This document shows, piece by piece, positions 10,745 through 15,818 of a stretch of DNA of 28,792 nucleotides. The stretch's first letter is position 1. Each line of letters begins with the position of its first letter. The stretch spans positions 1 to 28,792 of the IMG/VR virus record IMGVR_UViG_2778261570_000004. One strand, 5' to 3'. The position numbers and the translations under genes were made by a program. The stretch is from a virus. Taxonomy: Duplodnaviria; Heunggongvirae; Uroviricota; Caudoviricetes. Below the pieces are notes generated by a model, which was not told the DNA's origin, did no database searches, and saw only the letters and a program-made list of their open reading frames with translations.

Positions 10745-10910
10745 ACTATGACAAATCTATGCCGAATAACAGGGTGAGTAAAGGATCAAGATGCATTTTT
10801 TTATCATCAAATTTAGAAAATTCTGCTTAAAAACTGCCAGGCATAACTTAAAGCCCACACCAGCAATGCATTGCCCATCTGCGCGGAAAGGAAAAAAATT
10901 CCTAAATTTC

Positions 10911-10942
10911 TAACTTTAGATAATTGGCATTATTTAAAGTTA
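10911..10942. other. rox-like recombination site (TAACTTTAGATAAT-TGGC-ATTATTTAAAGTTA)
   Basis: 14-4-14 palindrome with one arm mismatch; matches the rox target of Dre as recalled at 31 of 32 positions; about 150 bp upstream of the recombinase gene. Confidence 0.8.
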
Positions 10943-11094
10943 GGCTATAATTATGGGTAGATGATCAGTATTGACATCACTGAAAATACGTGCCTCGAAT
11001 CAAAGGCTTGAATCTTGAAAATTAACTTATAGCTACCCTGTCATTTTTATATTTTTCGCGTAGCGTCATCTGTATATAGAGGTTAAATAGTTTC

Positions 11095-12123
11095 ATGAGT
11101 GAATTAATTATCTCTGGCAGCTCCGGTGGTTTTCTGCGCAACATTGGCAAAGAGTACCAGGAGGCCGCAGAAAACTTTATGCGGTTCATGAATGACCAGG
11201 GGGCTTACGCGCCGAATACTTTGCGCGATCTCCGGTTAGTGTTTCACTCCTGGGCGAGATGGTGTCACGCTCGCCAGCTCGCCTGGTTCCCGATCTCACC
11301 AGAGATGGCCCGCGAGTATTTTCTTCAGCTGCATGATGCTGATCTGGCTTCGACCACCATTGATAAGCACTACGCCATGCTTAACATGCTGCTTTCGCAT
11401 TGTGGCCTTCCGCCACTTTCGGATGATAAAAGTGTTTCTCTGGCTATGCGGCGCATCCGGCGTGAAGCGGCAACTGAAAAAGGCGAACGAACAGGCCAGG
11501 CTATACCGCTGCGGTGGGACGATCTGAAACTGCTCGACGTCCTGTTGTCCAGGTCAGAACGGCTGGTGGACCTGCGCAACCGGGCTTTTCTCTTTGTTGC
11601 ATACAATACGCTGATGCGTATGTCGGAAATCTCGCGTATTCGTGTAGGAGATCTGGATCAAACAGGTGACACTGTCACGCTACATATTTCACACACGAAG
11701 ACAATAACGACCGCCGCCGGGATTGATAAGGTGCTTTCCCGTCGCACTACCGCTGTGCTGAATGACTGGCTGGATGTTTCCGGGCTTCGCGAACATCCTG
11801 ACGCAGTGTTGTTCCCGCCGATACACCGTAGCAATAAGGCCAGGATCACGACAACGCCCCTTACTGCACCTGCAATGGAGAAAATATTCAGCGACGCCTG
11901 GGTGTTGCTGAATAAAAGAGATGCTACGCCAAACAAAGGAAGATACCGGACGTGGACCGGGCATAGTGCACGCGTCGGGGCCGCTATTGATATGGCTGAA
12001 AAGCAGGTGTCTATGGTGGAGATCATGCAGGAAGGAACCTGGAAGAAACCGGAAACACTTATGCGGTATCTTCGCCGTGGCGGCGTGTCTGTGGGGGCTA
12101 ATAGCCGCCTGATGGATTCGTAA
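11095..12123 (+). CDS. dre: Cre-family tyrosine recombinase, Dre-like
   Basis: Alignable by eye to P1 Cre (HSWARWC, SVSLAMRRIRRE, RNRAFLFVAYNTLMRMSEISRIRVGDL, WTGHSARVGAAIDMA, LMRYL catalytic Tyr); adjacent rox-like site. Confidence 0.85.
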   Translation: MSELIISGSSGGFLRNIGKEYQEAAENFMRFMNDQGAYAPNTLRDLRLVFHSWARWCHARQLAWFPISPEMAREYFLQLHDADLASTTIDKHYAMLNMLLSHCGLPPLSDDKSVSLAMRRIRREAATEKGERTGQAIPLRWDDLKLLDVLLSRSERLVDLRNRAFLFVAYNTLMRMSEISRIRVGDLDQTGDTVTLHISHTKTITTAAGIDKVLSRRTTAVLNDWLDVSGLREHPDAVLFPPIHRSNKARITTTPLTAPAMEKIFSDAWVLLNKRDATPNKGRYRTWTGHSARVGAAIDMAEKQVSMVEIMQEGTWKKPETLMRYLRRGGVSVGANSRLMDS

Positions 12124-12143
12124 ATTAAAATTCTAACACATCT
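12123..12143. promoter_or_regulatory. operator-like motif copy 5 (reverse orientation)
   Basis: AAATTAAAATTCTAACACATC just after recombinase stop and about 55 bp before the next operon. Confidence 0.4.
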
Positions 12144-12196
12144 TTTTAGATTAACGCCTTTGCTGTAAAGTACCCTCGCCTATTTAGGAGGGTGCT

Positions 12197-12541
12197 TTGC
12201 AGAGTCAAATCACGGAATCAAGACGCTTCAAGGTGGATGGTTACACCGTAACCTTCGCCGCTGGTGTTAAGAACAGTCATGCTGTCGTTGTGTTCGGCAT
12301 CATGACCGGGCTTGAGGCCGTCCCTGTGTTTACCCTCGAAAAAAACTGGCGAAATCTGGAGGAAGCAGAAAGCTACGTCCGGAAAGTAACCATCATTGCC
12401 GCCGAAAAACTCCTGGCCCACTATCAGGAAAATTATCGCACTATGGTCGAGAAGATTAATCTCGCTTTCACTCGCCCCACTACCGGCTTTATTGCACCGG
12501 ATACTAATGCCGGTCGATATCCTGCAAGGGGGCGTCGGTGA
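12197..12541 (+). CDS. hypothetical protein (114 aa, TTG start)
   Basis: AGGAGG 5 nt upstream of TTG; first gene of a tightly coupled six-gene operon. Confidence 0.5.
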   Translation: MQSQITESRRFKVDGYTVTFAAGVKNSHAVVVFGIMTGLEAVPVFTLEKNWRNLEEAESYVRKVTIIAAEKLLAHYQENYRTMVEKINLAFTRPTTGFIAPDTNAGRYPARGRR

Positions 12542-13014
12542 AAACTTATTACCCATCTCTGAATTGTTACCCGTCTTCCTATCCAGAATTATCCGGGAAG
12601 CTGTTAGCTCTATTAGCTAAAGCACCTACGGAATGGTTTAAGCCAGTCGTTATCAATCCACACTTCCTGGGTTACGGATCTGTTCGCACTCGTAACGAAC
12701 TCAAAAACCTACTGGCGCATGGATTCATTCGACACCGTGCCGGGAAAGGCTATCAGTTAGCGATTGCGCCAGAAGAGGCCGTGCGGCTATTCGCATATCG
12801 TGACAGCCAGACAAAAGCTCGGGTAATAGCTCAAATACTTCATAACGGCAGCACCTATGCCCGCCAGTTTGGCGGCGACACGTCGCAGTTCTTGCGGGCG
12901 GTGCGATCGCTGGAGGAGCAAGGAGTTATTGAAAGTTCCTGTCTTCCTGTTCCTACCGTTCCACATATCAAACGTCGGGTTTACACCTTCACGCAGAGAG
13001 CTAAAAAACAATGA
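12538..13014 (+). CDS. hypothetical protein, possible winged-helix DNA-binding (158 aa, GTG start)
   Basis: GTGA overlap with upstream gene, ATGA overlap with downstream gene; basic helix-rich segments. Confidence 0.5.
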   Translation: MKTYYPSLNCYPSSYPELSGKLLALLAKAPTEWFKPVVINPHFLGYGSVRTRNELKNLLAHGFIRHRAGKGYQLAIAPEEAVRLFAYRDSQTKARVIAQILHNGSTYARQFGGDTSQFLRAVRSLEEQGVIESSCLPVPTVPHIKRRVYTFTQRAKKQ

Positions 13015-13505
13015 TTTACGTAAAAGTGAAACGCCTACATCCGGCAGCAAAACTTCCAGCTTATGCCACCTCCGGATCGGCGGCGATGGATTTTGAGGCT
13101 GTTGAAATAAAACCATGCGTCGATAGCAATGGTGCAATTTCCTCAAGCTGGTGGGTGTATACCGGACTGGCTATGGAGATCCCGCCCGGCTGGTGTCTGA
13201 AACTCTATCCGCGATCAGGATTGGGCTGCAAAAAACATACTCGCCTGGCTAACTGCGTAGGAATTATCGACTCCGATTATCGCGGCGAAATCATGGCAAA
13301 ACTGATTACTGATCCAGGCGGGGAAGGCGTTTGTCTCAAGCCTGGAATGGCTGTCATGCAAGGAATTTTTGAGCGTGTTGAACAAGTCTCACTAGTCGAG
13401 GTTGAGGAACTCAACGAAACGGAGCGTGGTGCTGGTGGCTTTGGTAGCACATCGGAAGGCCACTTTGAAATTAAGCGTTCACCGCTTCAGTACGAAAAGT
13501 TATAA
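13011..13505 (+). CDS. dut: dUTPase homolog (trimeric Dut family) with divergent motif IV
   Basis: Motifs SGSAAMDF, YPRSGLG, GIIDSDYRGE, RGAGGFGSTSEG present; motif IV reads GMAVMQ where E. coli Dut has GERIAQ. Confidence 0.7.
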   Translation: MIYVKVKRLHPAAKLPAYATSGSAAMDFEAVEIKPCVDSNGAISSSWWVYTGLAMEIPPGWCLKLYPRSGLGCKKHTRLANCVGIIDSDYRGEIMAKLITDPGGEGVCLKPGMAVMQGIFERVEQVSLVEVEELNETERGAGGFGSTSEGHFEIKRSPLQYEKL

Positions 13506-13519
13506 GCAGAGAAAAGACT

Positions 13520-13960
13520 ATGAATAACATGGCAACGAAAGAGCTTTTTAAGTTCCGTCCCAAATACAAAGCTCACAAAAAAAATGGAACCACGGTCATC
13601 ATTACGGATGACAACGGCGTGATGATTAATCTTACCGGGAGCGTAACTATTTCTGCTGGTGGCATCACCACCCAGCAAGAAGAAATCGACCTTGAAGCAG
13701 CCGACTTTTCAGACGCGCTGATGTGGCTGAAGGAAGGCAAGAAAGTTGCTCGACGCGGGTGGAACGGCGAAAACCAATTCTGCTGGCTGGTTCCTGAAGG
13801 ACAGTACCCGGCACGAATGGAAGCCATTAAGGGATATTTCCCCGGCGACCTCGTTCCGTATGGTGCTTATTTCGCCTTAAAAAATGCACAAGGTGTAGTT
13901 GTTCCGTGGGTGCCTTCAGTTGGCGACCTGCTGGCCTGTGACTGGTTTGTTGTGGAGTGA
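13520..13960 (+). CDS. DUF2829-like protein (146 aa)
   Basis: C-terminal ALMWLKEGKKVARRGWNG...PWVPSVGDLLACDWFVVE matches the DUF2829 pattern as recalled. Confidence 0.6.
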   Translation: MNNMATKELFKFRPKYKAHKKNGTTVIITDDNGVMINLTGSVTISAGGITTQQEEIDLEAADFSDALMWLKEGKKVARRGWNGENQFCWLVPEGQYPARMEAIKGYFPGDLVPYGAYFALKNAQGVVVPWVPSVGDLLACDWFVVE

Positions 13961-13966
13961 TTTGAC

Positions 13967-14734
13967 ATGGAAAGCACTAAAACAATTCAATACCGCTTGC
14001 GTAATGGCCTGCTGGTGGCTGTTAACGCCGACATGTCACTGCCGTTTGACACGATTGAACGCACTATCATGACGTATCTCGGCTTTAATGAAGAGCTGAA
14101 TGAAGAGCATGGCGTAGCTATATGGAGTGATGCAGACAGCGGCGTTCGTCGTTACATCACCGCCAGGGGCAAAGACTACTCTCTGGAAGAACTGTTTGCC
14201 CTTGCGCAGTCTTTCGAATGTGTAGCATTAGACCTGTTTAATGATCCTGCTATAGCGCAACGACTTATACGCGAGCTTGGGCTATCCGTTACACCAATTA
14301 TATTTAAAAATGGCAGCCTGACTGGCACATGGCGCGTAGAACGCATCTCAAACTACCTTCCATATAACCGACAGTTAAATGGAGTAATCTCCGGCGTTAA
14401 CCAGCCCGTAGCGTGTGAAAATGTAAACCTGGTTGTCGCTGTTTTGGCAACCGCATGTCGTGTTATCGGTTTGGCTAAACAGGCATTTATTCATTTCCCA
14501 AATGGTGCAGAAGGTAGCGCAGAGATTATCGCGTGTGATTTCGAATTTACCTGGATGCTACGCGAATATCTGGACCAAACAGTATTCCGTGCCGAAGAAC
14601 TGGATATGTATATCACGTCAACGATTCCAGACGATGTGCGAGCTGAAGCAATCGCTACAGCCAGGGCGAAATGCCGTGCGGCGATTGCAGAACAGGCCAA
14701 AGAAGAAGTTAAGGAAGTGGCAGATGGCGACTAA
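13967..14734 (+). CDS. hypothetical protein (255 aa)
   Basis: ORF; SD-like AAGGAAG for the next gene lies in its 3' end. Confidence 0.55.
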   Translation: MESTKTIQYRLRNGLLVAVNADMSLPFDTIERTIMTYLGFNEELNEEHGVAIWSDADSGVRRYITARGKDYSLEELFALAQSFECVALDLFNDPAIAQRLIRELGLSVTPIIFKNGSLTGTWRVERISNYLPYNRQLNGVISGVNQPVACENVNLVVAVLATACRVIGLAKQAFIHFPNGAEGSAEIIACDFEFTWMLREYLDQTVFRAEELDMYITSTIPDDVRAEAIATARAKCRAAIAEQAKEEVKEVADGD

Positions 14735-15818
14735 GAGCAATATTTATAAAGATCCGCGCTGGCTGTCGCTGGTGGAGAAATATAAAGACAATTGGGTACT
14801 GGCAGCAAAAGAATTGTTTGATATTGATTTAAGCCACCAGCAACAACAAATTGTTGAAGCTATACAGCCCAATAATGCAAAAGCTACTGTCACCACTCCG
14901 TATGGGATCGGACGACCGCAAGTGCTTGCTGTTATTAGTACCCTTTATACGATTATGTATCCTGATTCCCGGACAGTAATTGTTTATCCAAAATCAAATG
15001 TTTGCAAAAGAGGAATTGTTGCATATGTGTGGCAATGTTGGGAGGCATTGCTGAAAAAACAACCTTTTATCATTGAGTATTTTAAGGTCGGTGATAGCGG
15101 TCTGATGTTCAATGAATTTTGGGGAATGTGCTTTTGTAACTTCCGCCTTAACTATGAAGATAGCATTGCAGGTCACTACGCCGACCATCTTTTATTCATT
15201 ATTGTGGATTCCGCACATATCAGCGATCGGGCATACAGCATTGTGTGGGCAAGCATGACTAGTGGTGATTCACGCATATTGCTCACTTCAATTCCGTCAC
15301 CAGAGGAAATAGGCTTTTTTTATGATTCACATCATGGACGTGCTTTAGCTGAAGATAATCCGAGTGGTGTATATAAAGCCATTAAGCTGAGTGCGGAGGA
15401 TTCACCATTTATTACCCAAGAATATCTTGATCATTTTGCCGAAAGGTATGGCGGGCGAAATAGTGATGACTATCGTCGTATGATTCTTGGTGAGTTCCCT
15501 GGTATTAGGGAGGCTGTTCTTGAATCAGATATGCCGAAGACAATGCGCTTTTCGATGCCTGATGGTAGTGAATGGACAATACCATTACGAGTGATAGCCC
15601 GGCATCATGCGCAGCACCACGCCAAAAAACATGGCGTCACGACATTAGAATGGTTGAAATCGCACACCATTCCACTCTTCACTGCAGATCACAATGCTAT
15701 CGTTGAGTGGGCAAAAACAATTCCGTGGGAGAATGTCGCTGAATACGCCCACATGCTAAAACCGCCGAAAGACAGGCAAGAAATTAGCTGGCTGACAGCA
15801 GAAAAAATCATTGAGTGA
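14724..15818 (+). CDS. terminase large subunit paralog with degenerate Walker A/B and no nuclease domain (364 aa; track ORF 14433 is an upstream frame extension)
   Basis: By-eye alignment to the 8092 protein: DPRW, SHQQQ, FFYDSHH, YGGR conserved; GHGTGKS becomes PYGIGRP, ILDEAS becomes IVDSAH; unrelated C-terminus. Confidence 0.65.
   Translation: MATKSNIYKDPRWLSLVEKYKDNWVLAAKELFDIDLSHQQQQIVEAIQPNNAKATVTTPYGIGRPQVLAVISTLYTIMYPDSRTVIVYPKSNVCKRGIVAYVWQCWEALLKKQPFIIEYFKVGDSGLMFNEFWGMCFCNFRLNYEDSIAGHYADHLLFIIVDSAHISDRAYSIVWASMTSGDSRILLTSIPSPEEIGFFYDSHHGRALAEDNPSGVYKAIKLSAEDSPFITQEYLDHFAERYGGRNSDDYRRMILGEFPGIREAVLESDMPKTMRFSMPDGSEWTIPLRVIARHHAQHHAKKHGVTTLEWLKSHTIPLFTADHNAIVEWAKTIPWENVAEYAHMLKPPKDRQEISWLTAEKIIE

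What the first reader, a model, noticed from the sequence alone, without database searches (positions are those of the whole stretch)
12538..13505. dUTPase with divergent motif IV coupled to a winged-helix-like protein
The Dut homolog keeps motifs I, II, III and V, but motif IV reads GMAVMQ where E. coli has GERIAQ, losing the conserved arginine. Its start overlaps the stop of a small basic, possibly DNA-binding protein. Phage trimeric Duts are known to moonlight as signalling proteins that derepress satellite repressors, so a Dut with altered catalytic motif paired with a DNA-binding protein may have a regulatory role.
Basis: partly seen in the sequence, partly recalled or inferred. Interest (0 to 1): 0.45.

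Follow-up and report, generated by a model that had tools for sequence, protein, structure and literature searches.

The report
Phage-plasmid dUTPase lacking motif-IV arginine
This is the already-annotated dUTPase gene of a D6-type phage-plasmid. Its whole lineage has swapped one near-universal arginine for a hydrophobic residue and always sits just after a gene for a small DNA-binding-type protein, but nothing yet shows it is more than a working dUTPase.

Summary
The window is a phage D6-type plasmid prophage (97.8% identical to D6; Dre recombinase 341/342). ORF 13011-13505 is a trimeric-type dUTPase that passes the Pfam and NCBIfam cut-offs. Motifs I, II, III and V and the motif-IV glutamine are intact. 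The motif-IV arginine (E. coli R116) is alanine (GMAVMQ).

The loss is not noise. Every D6-like dUTPase examined (E. coli, Salmonella, Klebsiella, Raoultella) has Ala there, and a distant Pantoea/soil group (about 50% identity) has Val. About 93-99% of other sampled dUTPases keep Arg.

The upstream 158-aa basic protein is predicted to be two tandem winged helices. Its stop overlaps the dut start in every group. That family occurs only in this lineage, so the co-occurrence is a single evolutionary event.

Structural work on a retroviral dUTPase (M-PMV) found this arginine makes only water-mediated gamma-phosphate contacts and may be dispensable. All three genes are under purifying selection.

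Most likely this is an active dUTPase with a remodelled phosphate-side rim, made together with a lineage-specific DNA-binding protein. A regulatory Dut/winged-helix partnership is possible but untested. Interest is modest: a new variant of a known kind.

The parts
11095..12123 (+). Dre tyrosine recombinase (Cre homologue of phage D6). It marks the conserved position of the operon.
   Evidence: 341/342 identical to D6 Dre. Pfam Phage_integrase E 3.4e-17. D6 annotation.
12163..12202 (+). Conserved hairpin between dre and orf2. Its 3' arm covers the AGGAGG Shine-Dalgarno and the TTG start of orf2. It could be a terminator/attenuator or a translational occlusion element.
   Evidence: Inverted repeat I4. 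RNA fold -25.7 kcal/mol, z -4.58. Both arms differ between D6-like loci (CCCTC/GAGGG here, CCCCC/GGGGG in Raoultella L005). In Klebsiella L016 a shorter, partly mismatched stem is followed by a T8 run. Pairing was read by eye from the alignment, not counted.
12197..12541 (+). orf2 (D6 orf117), 114 aa, basic (pI 9.75), first gene of the operon. Function unknown.
   Evidence: PHROG 1968 E 4.1e-48. Homologues only in this lineage. Model shows a 4-stranded sheet plus 2 helices, pLDDT 71.9. No significant PDB fold match. dN/dS 0.2-0.3.
12538..13014 (+). orf3 (D6 orf116), 158 aa, pI 10.05. Predicted tandem winged-helix protein: WH1 is about residues 16-74 (nt 12583-12759) and WH2 about residues 91-151 (nt 12808-12990). 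It has an invariant basic wing HIKRR.
13011..13505 (+). dut (D6 orf115), 164 aa, homotrimeric-type dUTPase. Motif I nt 13080-13094, motif II 13209-13226, motif III 13266-13286, motif V 13425-13448.
   Evidence: family assignment. (motifs).
13344..13361 (+). Motif IV, GMAVMQ. Met113 replaces the usual Asp/Glu, Ala114 replaces the near-universal Arg, and Gln117 is kept.
   Evidence: Alignments.
13011..13014 (+). ATGA: the stop of orf3 overlaps the start of dut, which suggests translational coupling.
   Evidence: Overlaps of 4-20 nt are kept in every group.
13520..13960 (+). Tad2-like (DUF2829) gene immediately downstream. Neighbour only; not shown to belong to the same function.
   Evidence: Pfam PF11195 E 5.9e-23. 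Fused in frame to the dUTPase in Klebsiella michiganensis L016. Absent from the Pantoea group.

Best explanation
orf2-orf3-dut is a lineage-specific accessory operon of D6-type (P1-family) phage-plasmids. It always sits directly downstream of the Dre/Cre-type recombinase.

dut most likely encodes a catalytically competent homotrimeric dUTPase. It would hydrolyse dUTP to dUMP and PPi and so keep uracil out of the replicating phage-plasmid DNA.

In the ancestor of this lineage, the acid/base pair of motif IV (Asp/Glu-Arg) was replaced by hydrophobic residues: Met-Ala in the enteric group and Met-Val in the Pantoea group. That arginine sits on the gamma-phosphate side and is not part of the catalytic core. 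The change is therefore tolerated and probably alters Km, product release or the local surface rather than abolishing activity.

orf3 is a basic tandem winged-helix protein, most likely DNA-binding. It is made in fixed proportion with the dUTPase through overlapping stop/start codons.

Shown here: the family assignment, the motif states, conservation, synteny, purifying selection and the predicted fold. Inferred: enzymatic activity, DNA binding, and co-translation.
For: Family membership by curated thresholds.

Across 18 lineage sequences spanning about 50% divergence, these residues are invariant: D27, R68, S69, G70, D87, S88, D89, Y90, Q117, R139, G140, G143, F144, G145, S146. dN/dS for dut is 0.07-0.15.

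[quoted passage not shown] It is disordered in 10 of 12 structures and 'might not be essential' (PMC3905902). Gln123 of the same motif is part of the catalytic set in that paper.

Non-basic residues at this position occur sporadically in unrelated viral dUTPases: L130 GQAVAQ, L141 GDSLVQ, P0106 GKAIAQ. Lys occurs in three others. So the position is not absolutely required in the family.

The operon is conserved in 126 plasmids carrying the whole module (143 with any match). It is found in 103 of 5426 complete E. coli genomes, always on plasmids. It is also present in 23 metagenome loci and a Pantoea plasmid.
Against: The arginine is kept in 103 of 104 non-lineage homologues and in 68 of 73 informative viral dUTPases. 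Such strong conservation implies a real functional contribution, so its permanent loss may mean altered function.

The loss comes with other lineage-specific invariant changes: A25, W47, W48, C62, I99 and M113. That pattern looks like a remodelled surface rather than a single neutral substitution.

The strict, overlap-preserving pairing with a winged-helix protein found nowhere else is not typical of housekeeping phage dUTPases. The nearest arginine-containing relatives lie in RecT/SSB replication modules.

No activity data exist.
Confidence: 0.6

Rival explanations
1. Cis-encoded Dut/winged-helix switch. The dUTPase trimer binds the tandem winged-helix protein (orf3) and modulates its DNA binding, or the reverse, possibly depending on dUTP occupancy. 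This would be analogous in logic to staphylococcal phage Dut releasing the Stl repressor. The hydrophobic motif-IV rim, together with W47/W48/C62/I99, would be the docking surface.
For: The stop/start overlap of orf3 and dut is kept in every group down to 26-31% and about 50% identity. The orf3 family is found only next to arginine-less dUTPases: 0 of 78 other dUTPase loci have it. Only phage D6 among 50,697 phage records has it. Lineage-specific invariant hydrophobic substitutions are listed. orf3 has a conserved but disordered N-terminal peptide (YPSLNCYPSSYPELS; pLDDT below 50 for residues 1-12).
Against: All co-occurrences trace to one lineage, so they count as one evolutionary event. Overlapping genes are common in phage operons whether or not the products form a complex. 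There is no motif-VI-type insertion: the spacing from the motif III Asp to the motif IV Gln is 30 residues here and 29 in E. coli. There is no similarity to Stl. No interaction test was possible with these tools.
Confidence: 0.15
2. Counter-defence module. The dUTPase variant acts together with the adjacent Tad2-like sponge as part of an anti-defence island next to the recombinase. For example, it could remove dUTP made by dCTP-deaminase defences, or bind or cleave another nucleotide.
For: A Tad2-like domain gene lies immediately downstream. It is fused in frame to the dUTPase in Klebsiella michiganensis L016, with motif V kept. A second fusion cluster is P0004. The region next to cre/dre is variable and carries accessory genes: Doc/Phd, HicAB, type I R-M.
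Against: No PADLOC hit. The Pantoea group keeps orf3-dut but has no Tad2-like gene, so the link is not obligatory. In P0004 motif V is destroyed (RGAGGITT), which suggests a frameshift artefact. The uracil/deoxyribose-recognition motif III is canonical, which argues against a new substrate.
Confidence: 0.1
3. Catalytically crippled pseudo-enzyme kept for dUTP binding or a structural role only.
For: Loss of a residue conserved in more than 93% of relatives, together with loss of the adjacent acidic residue.
Against: Invariance of the catalytic Asp87, the Gln117 that positions the water and alpha-phosphate, the motif V arginine finger and the Phe lid across the lineage. That is hard to explain without catalysis. 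Literature suggests the arginine is peripheral.
Confidence: 0.1

Closest known systems
Canonical homotrimeric dUTPase (E. coli Dut; Pfam PF00692; NCBIfam NF001862/TIGR00576)
   Same: Passes the curated HMM cut-offs. Same length class. Motifs I, II, III and V and the motif IV Gln are identical in kind. No extra domain.
   Different: The motif IV Asp/Glu-Arg pair is replaced by Met-Ala (or Met-Val in the Pantoea group). Lineage-specific W47, W48, C62, I99 and A25. Variable C-terminal extensions after motif V: a 17-aa tail here, a Tad2 fusion in L016, and 50-65-aa Thr/Pro/Ala/Glu-rich tails in the Pantoea group.
Staphylococcal phage trimeric Dut acting as anti-repressor of SaPI Stl (80alpha, phi11)
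   Same: A phage-encoded trimeric dUTPase associated with a helix-turn-helix-class protein. The idea of a nucleotide-gated protein-protein switch would fit the gene pairing.
   Different: The partner here is encoded in cis in the same operon, not by a satellite island. It is not similar to Stl. There is no motif VI insertion. The host is Gram-negative. No interaction has been shown.
MarR/PadR/Rrf2-type winged-helix regulators and tandem-WH proteins (ScpB, RPC34)
   Different: No Pfam family reaches its threshold. Two winged helices in one 158-aa chain, without the MarR dimerisation helices. The family is restricted to one phage-plasmid lineage.
Phage D6 genes orf2/orf3/dut (GenBank AY753669, MF356679, NC_050154)
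   Same: The same genes at 97.8% nucleotide identity. dut is already annotated as 'probable dUTPase' / 'dUTP diphosphatase'.
   Different: The records call orf2 and orf3 hypothetical. They say nothing about motif IV.

Membership tests
Homotrimeric dUTPase (PF00692 / NF001862) | Profile score above the curated cut-off | tested here: met
   Pfam 54.2 bits against 22. NF001862 121.5 against 103. TIGR00576 119.2 against 102.55.
Homotrimeric dUTPase (PF00692 / NF001862) | Motif I Asp, motif II Arg-Ser, motif III Asp-x-Asp-Tyr, motif V Arg-Gly-x-x-Gly-Phe-Gly-Ser | tested here: met
   AAMDF, PRSGLG, IDSDYRG, RGAGGFGS. Invariant across the lineage.
Homotrimeric dUTPase (PF00692 / NF001862) | Motif IV Gly-(Asp/Glu)-Arg-(Ile/Val)-Ala-Gln: the arginine | tested here: not met
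   GMAVMQ, with Ala114 at the arginine position. Val in the Pantoea group.
Homotrimeric dUTPase (PF00692 / NF001862) | Motif IV glutamine | tested here: met
   Gln117, present in 100% of lineage and canonical sequences.
Homotrimeric dUTPase (PF00692 / NF001862) | Trimer assembly and dUTP hydrolysis | not testable with these tools
   Only single-chain prediction is available. No biochemistry.
Moonlighting phage Dut / Stl-type derepression | Variable motif VI insertion between motifs III and IV | tested here: not met
   Asp87 to Gln117 spans 30 residues, against 29 in E. coli.
Moonlighting phage Dut / Stl-type derepression | Physical binding of the dUTPase to a repressor, releasing it from DNA | not testable with these tools
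   No multimer modelling or experiment was possible. Only conserved gene adjacency and overlap are shown.
Winged-helix DNA-binding proteins (MarR/PadR-like clan) | Winged-helix fold (three helices followed by a two-stranded beta wing) | tested here: met
Winged-helix DNA-binding proteins (MarR/PadR-like clan) | Pfam family score above the gathering threshold | tested here: not met
   No hit for the window protein. Distant members reach MarR_2 25.4 bits against 27 and TrmB 24.5 against 25.6.
Winged-helix DNA-binding proteins (MarR/PadR-like clan) | Sequence-specific DNA binding | not testable with these tools
   Only basic invariant residues are seen: R52, R65, R109, R120, R123, K145, R146, R147.
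Tad2 (Thoeris anti-defence 2) - neighbouring gene 13520-13960 | DUF2829/Tad2-like domain above the Pfam threshold | tested here: met
   PF11195, 81.6 bits against 25. Ligand binding not testable.

The most novel reading that the evidence does not exclude
The arginine-less dUTPase and the tandem winged-helix protein form a cis-encoded, nucleotide-sensing regulatory pair in Gram-negative phage-plasmids. In one version, the dUTPase trimer docks the winged-helix protein through its hydrophobic motif-IV rim, so that dUTP occupancy controls DNA binding. In the converse version, the basic partner supplies the missing positive charge in trans and so gates dUTPase activity. Either way, nucleotide-pool state would be linked to phage-plasmid gene expression next to the Dre/rox and c1 immunity region.
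Probability: 0.1. Interest if true: 0.7.

Novelty: new variant of a known kind. Interest (0 to 1): 0.3.

Why it matters
If the enzyme is active, this lineage is a natural experiment showing that the almost universally conserved motif-IV arginine of trimeric dUTPases can be dispensed with. The mechanistic literature explicitly left that question open (PMC3905902). If instead the dUTPase works with its winged-helix neighbour, it would extend dUTPase moonlighting from staphylococcal phage/satellite conflicts to self-regulation in enterobacterial phage-plasmids. These elements are found in about 2% of complete E. coli genomes. They carry the Dre/rox recombination system, which I know from the literature (not checked here) to be widely used in genetics. 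Either way the practical consequence is modest.

Tried and rejected
- The genome-contig scan for orf3 relatives gave one locus (L052). It is an OmpR-type response regulator that shares only the peptide GDASQFLRAV, so it is a false positive.
- P0152, from the representative search, is a repetitive 313-aa protein and also a false positive.
- PADLOC found nothing meaningful for any of the five genes.
- The orf2 model has no significant PDB fold match. The best E is 0.11, with weak PUR/Whirly-like resemblances, so no function is assigned.
- I looked for a compensating basic residue. R78 is shared with canonical relatives. K110 is not conserved in the lineage (Gln, Glu or Thr in some members). No convincing compensator was found.
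- ORFs of 160 and 114 aa upstream of the arginine-containing relative P0018, and of 160 and 121 aa upstream of P0106, have similar lengths to orf3 and orf2 but no similarity.
- Literature searches for mutagenesis of E. coli Arg116, for dUTPase with Tad2, and for dUTPase with phage-plasmids gave nothing relevant. The Vertessy review and the 2004 D6 paper are not held.
- Structure prediction of the dUTPase trimer, or of a dUTPase/orf3 complex, is not possible with the single-chain tool.
- The first metagenome scan failed because the alignment was too divergent. It succeeded with three closer sequences.

Full report
**What the window is.** The region 12100-14000 is 97.8% identical to Escherichia phage D6, a P1-family plasmid prophage. 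The recombinase at 11095-12123 is Dre (341/342 identical). The rox site upstream differs from D6 by one base. In the D6 records the three genes after dre are orf2/orf117, orf3/orf116 and dut/orf115. dut has been annotated as a probable dUTPase since the 2004 immC-region entry. The finding's coordinates, 12538-13505, are exactly orf3 plus dut.

**Checking the observation: the dUTPase.** The 164-aa product of 13011-13505 is a dUTPase by every profile library:
- Pfam PF00692, E 1.7e-14.
- PHROG 135, E 5.4e-62.
- NCBIfam equivalog NF001862, 121.5 bits against a cut-off of 103.
- 58 solved dUTPases matched, the best being 8y1q at E 2.3e-25.

The residue-by-residue alignments to solved structures put GMAVMQ opposite GERIAQ, GMRIAQ and GDRIAQ. 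An alignment with 120 database homologues and E. coli Dut agrees. Ala114 therefore stands where E. coli has Arg116, Met113 where most have Asp/Glu, and Gln117 is retained. Motifs I (AAMDF), II (PRSGLG), III (IDSDYRG) and V (RGAGGFGS) are canonical.

**Checking the observation: the upstream protein.** The dut ATG overlaps the orf3 TGA (ATGA, 13011-13014). The orf3 GTG overlaps the orf2 stop (GTGA, 12538-12541). orf3 is basic, with pI 10.05.

**Is the arginine loss more than chance?** Yes.
- Among the 120 best homologues, only the D6 clade (65-99% identity, including Klebsiella and Raoultella plasmids) reads GMAV[MIV]Q. One 52% relative reads GMVIAQ, one unrelated protein reads GKAIAQ, and all the others keep Arg.
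- Loci fetched from E. coli, Salmonella, Klebsiella and Raoultella all read PGMAVMQG.
- I searched with distant members of the orf3 family. That found 23 metagenome loci and a 94-kb Pantoea agglomerans plasmid. They form a second, far more divergent group of the same kind of element: c1, a dre-like gene (55% identity), an orf2-like gene, an extra ORF, an orf3-like gene (26-31%), dut (about 50%) and an isaA-like gene.
- Every dUTPase in that second group reads AGMV[IVL]AQ, that is Arg to Val.
- In an independent sample of 73 informative viral dUTPases outside the lineage, 68 have Arg, 3 have Lys, 1 has Ser and 1 has Ala.

So the loss is a fixed, ancestral trait of one phage-plasmid lineage, and rare but not unique elsewhere.

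Pairwise dN/dS against the window is 0.07-0.15 for dut, 0.06-0.09 for orf3 and 0.2-0.3 for orf2. All three genes are maintained by selection.

[quoted passage not shown] It is at least partly disordered in 10 of 12 structures. The authors state it 'might not be essential' and that mutagenesis is needed. In that paper, Gln123 of the same motif belongs to the catalytic set used for reaction modelling (PMC3905902). A 2025 review assigns motifs I, II and IV to triphosphate selectivity and Mg coordination (PMC12524310).

In the lineage, all residues normally considered catalytic or substrate-defining are invariant: D27, R68, S69, D87, D89, Y90, Q117, R139, F144 and S146. This pattern is what one expects of an enzyme that still turns over dUTP.

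The change is not isolated, however. Compared with 102 canonical relatives, the lineage also has invariant A25, W47, W48, C62, I99 and M113. That suggests a remodelled, more hydrophobic region. I could not place these residues in three dimensions because only two single-chain predictions were allowed, and I used them on the unknown proteins. I found no convincing compensating basic residue.

**The partner protein, orf3.** orf3 has no Pfam, NCBIfam or PDB sequence match. An AlphaFold2 model from nine homologues has mean pLDDT 76.6. It shows two consecutive helix-helix-helix-strand-strand units, at residues 16-74 and 91-151.
- Foldseek's best PDB matches are tandem or single winged-helix proteins (RPC34, ScpB, PadR, MarR, YodB), at modest E-values of 1e-3 to 1e-2.
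- Distant family members give just-sub-threshold Pfam hits to MarR_2, MarR, TrmB and HTH_27 at the second unit.
- PGAP calls the Pantoea homologue a helix-turn-helix protein.
- Invariant residues are largely basic, including the wing HIKRR.

'Winged-helix-like, possibly DNA-binding' is therefore a fair description. DNA binding itself is inferred.

The orf3 family is extremely narrow. It has 8 clusters among 1.84 billion representatives, one of which is a false positive. It occurs only in phage D6 among 50,697 phage records. It occurs in none of 78 unrelated dUTPase loci.

**The first gene, orf2.** orf2 is 114 aa and basic. Its model shows a four-stranded sheet plus two helices, and no fold match is significant.

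**How tight is the pairing?** The orf3 stop and dut start overlap by 4 to 20 nt in every group. The nearest arginine-containing relatives of the dUTPase lie in ordinary RecT/SSB replication modules with no orf3-like neighbour. The association of 'no arginine' with 'winged-helix neighbour' is thus perfect. But it is confined to one lineage, so it counts as a single evolutionary event and cannot by itself demonstrate functional coupling.

**Most likely mechanism (confidence about 0.6).** This is an accessory operon of D6-type phage-plasmids. It supplies an active dUTPase with an altered phosphate-side rim, co-translated with a lineage-specific DNA-binding protein of unknown target.

**Rival explanations.**
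- A cis-encoded Dut/winged-helix regulatory pair, analogous in logic to Dut-Stl (about 0.15).
- A counter-defence role connected with the adjacent Tad2-like gene (about 0.1). That gene is fused in frame to the dUTPase in Klebsiella michiganensis but absent from the Pantoea group.
- A crippled pseudo-enzyme (about 0.1).

There is no motif-VI-type insertion: 30 residues separate the motif III Asp from the motif IV Gln, against 29 in E. coli. No defence-system profile matches.

**Prevalence.** The whole module is present in 126 plasmid records, mostly of about 90 kb and non-mobilizable, from E. coli, Salmonella and Shigella. It is present in 103 of 5426 complete E. coli genomes, always on plasmids.

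**Verdict.** The gene is already known and annotated. The regulatory interpretation is unsupported but not excluded. I class it as a new variant of a known kind, with modest interest (0.3).

Noticed in passing
window 13520-13960 (+); L016 5434-6348; P0004: The gene right after dut encodes a Tad2-like/DUF2829 domain (Thoeris anti-defence 2 family; Pfam E 5.9e-23). It is 146 aa here but 213-225 aa in other D6-like loci. In Klebsiella michiganensis it is fused in frame to the dUTPase (304 aa, motif V intact). An E. coli cluster (P0004, 241 aa) is also fused, but its motif V is destroyed, which probably reflects a frameshift.
   Followed up: partly
window 12163-12202: A strong hairpin lies between dre and orf2 (RNA -25.7 kcal/mol, z -4.58). 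Its 3' arm contains the AGGAGG Shine-Dalgarno and the TTG start of orf2. Both arms differ between D6-like loci (CCCTC/GAGGG here, CCCCC/GGGGG in Raoultella L005). In Klebsiella L016 a shorter, partly mismatched stem is followed by a T8 run, which looks like a terminator. Pairing was read by eye from the alignment, not counted. It could attenuate read-through from dre or occlude orf2 translation.
   Followed up: partly
window 10910-10951: A rox-like site (TAACTTTAGATAAT TGGC ATTATTTAAAGTTA) differs from the D6 rox by one base in the left arm. It overlaps a near-consensus promoter-like site (TTGGCA-16-TATAAT) reading towards dre.
   Followed up: partly
L056-L079 (Pantoea agglomerans plasmid NZ_CP134741 and 23 metagenome contigs): A distant group of P1/D6-like phage-plasmids has Dre-like recombinases at only about 55% identity to Dre. 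Their dUTPases carry 50-65-aa Thr/Pro/Ala/Glu-rich low-complexity C-terminal tails ending in KKTTSK. An extra ORF of about 150 aa lies between the orf2-like and orf3-like genes.
   Followed up: partly
L055 (E. coli IncY plasmid NZ_CP010154), 3001-3401: Some P1-like plasmids keep only the first 156 nt of orf2. A different small 'transcriptional regulator' gene follows, and an IS26 copy lies about 2 kb further on. This shows that the slot downstream of the recombinase is a site of gene replacement.
   Followed up: no
window 14433-15818 (+): The mechanical 461-aa ORF overlaps the end of the isaA-like gene (13967-14734) by about 300 nt. Related loci call a gene of about 364 aa starting at the isaA-like stop, so the true start here is probably near 14724.
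   Followed up: no
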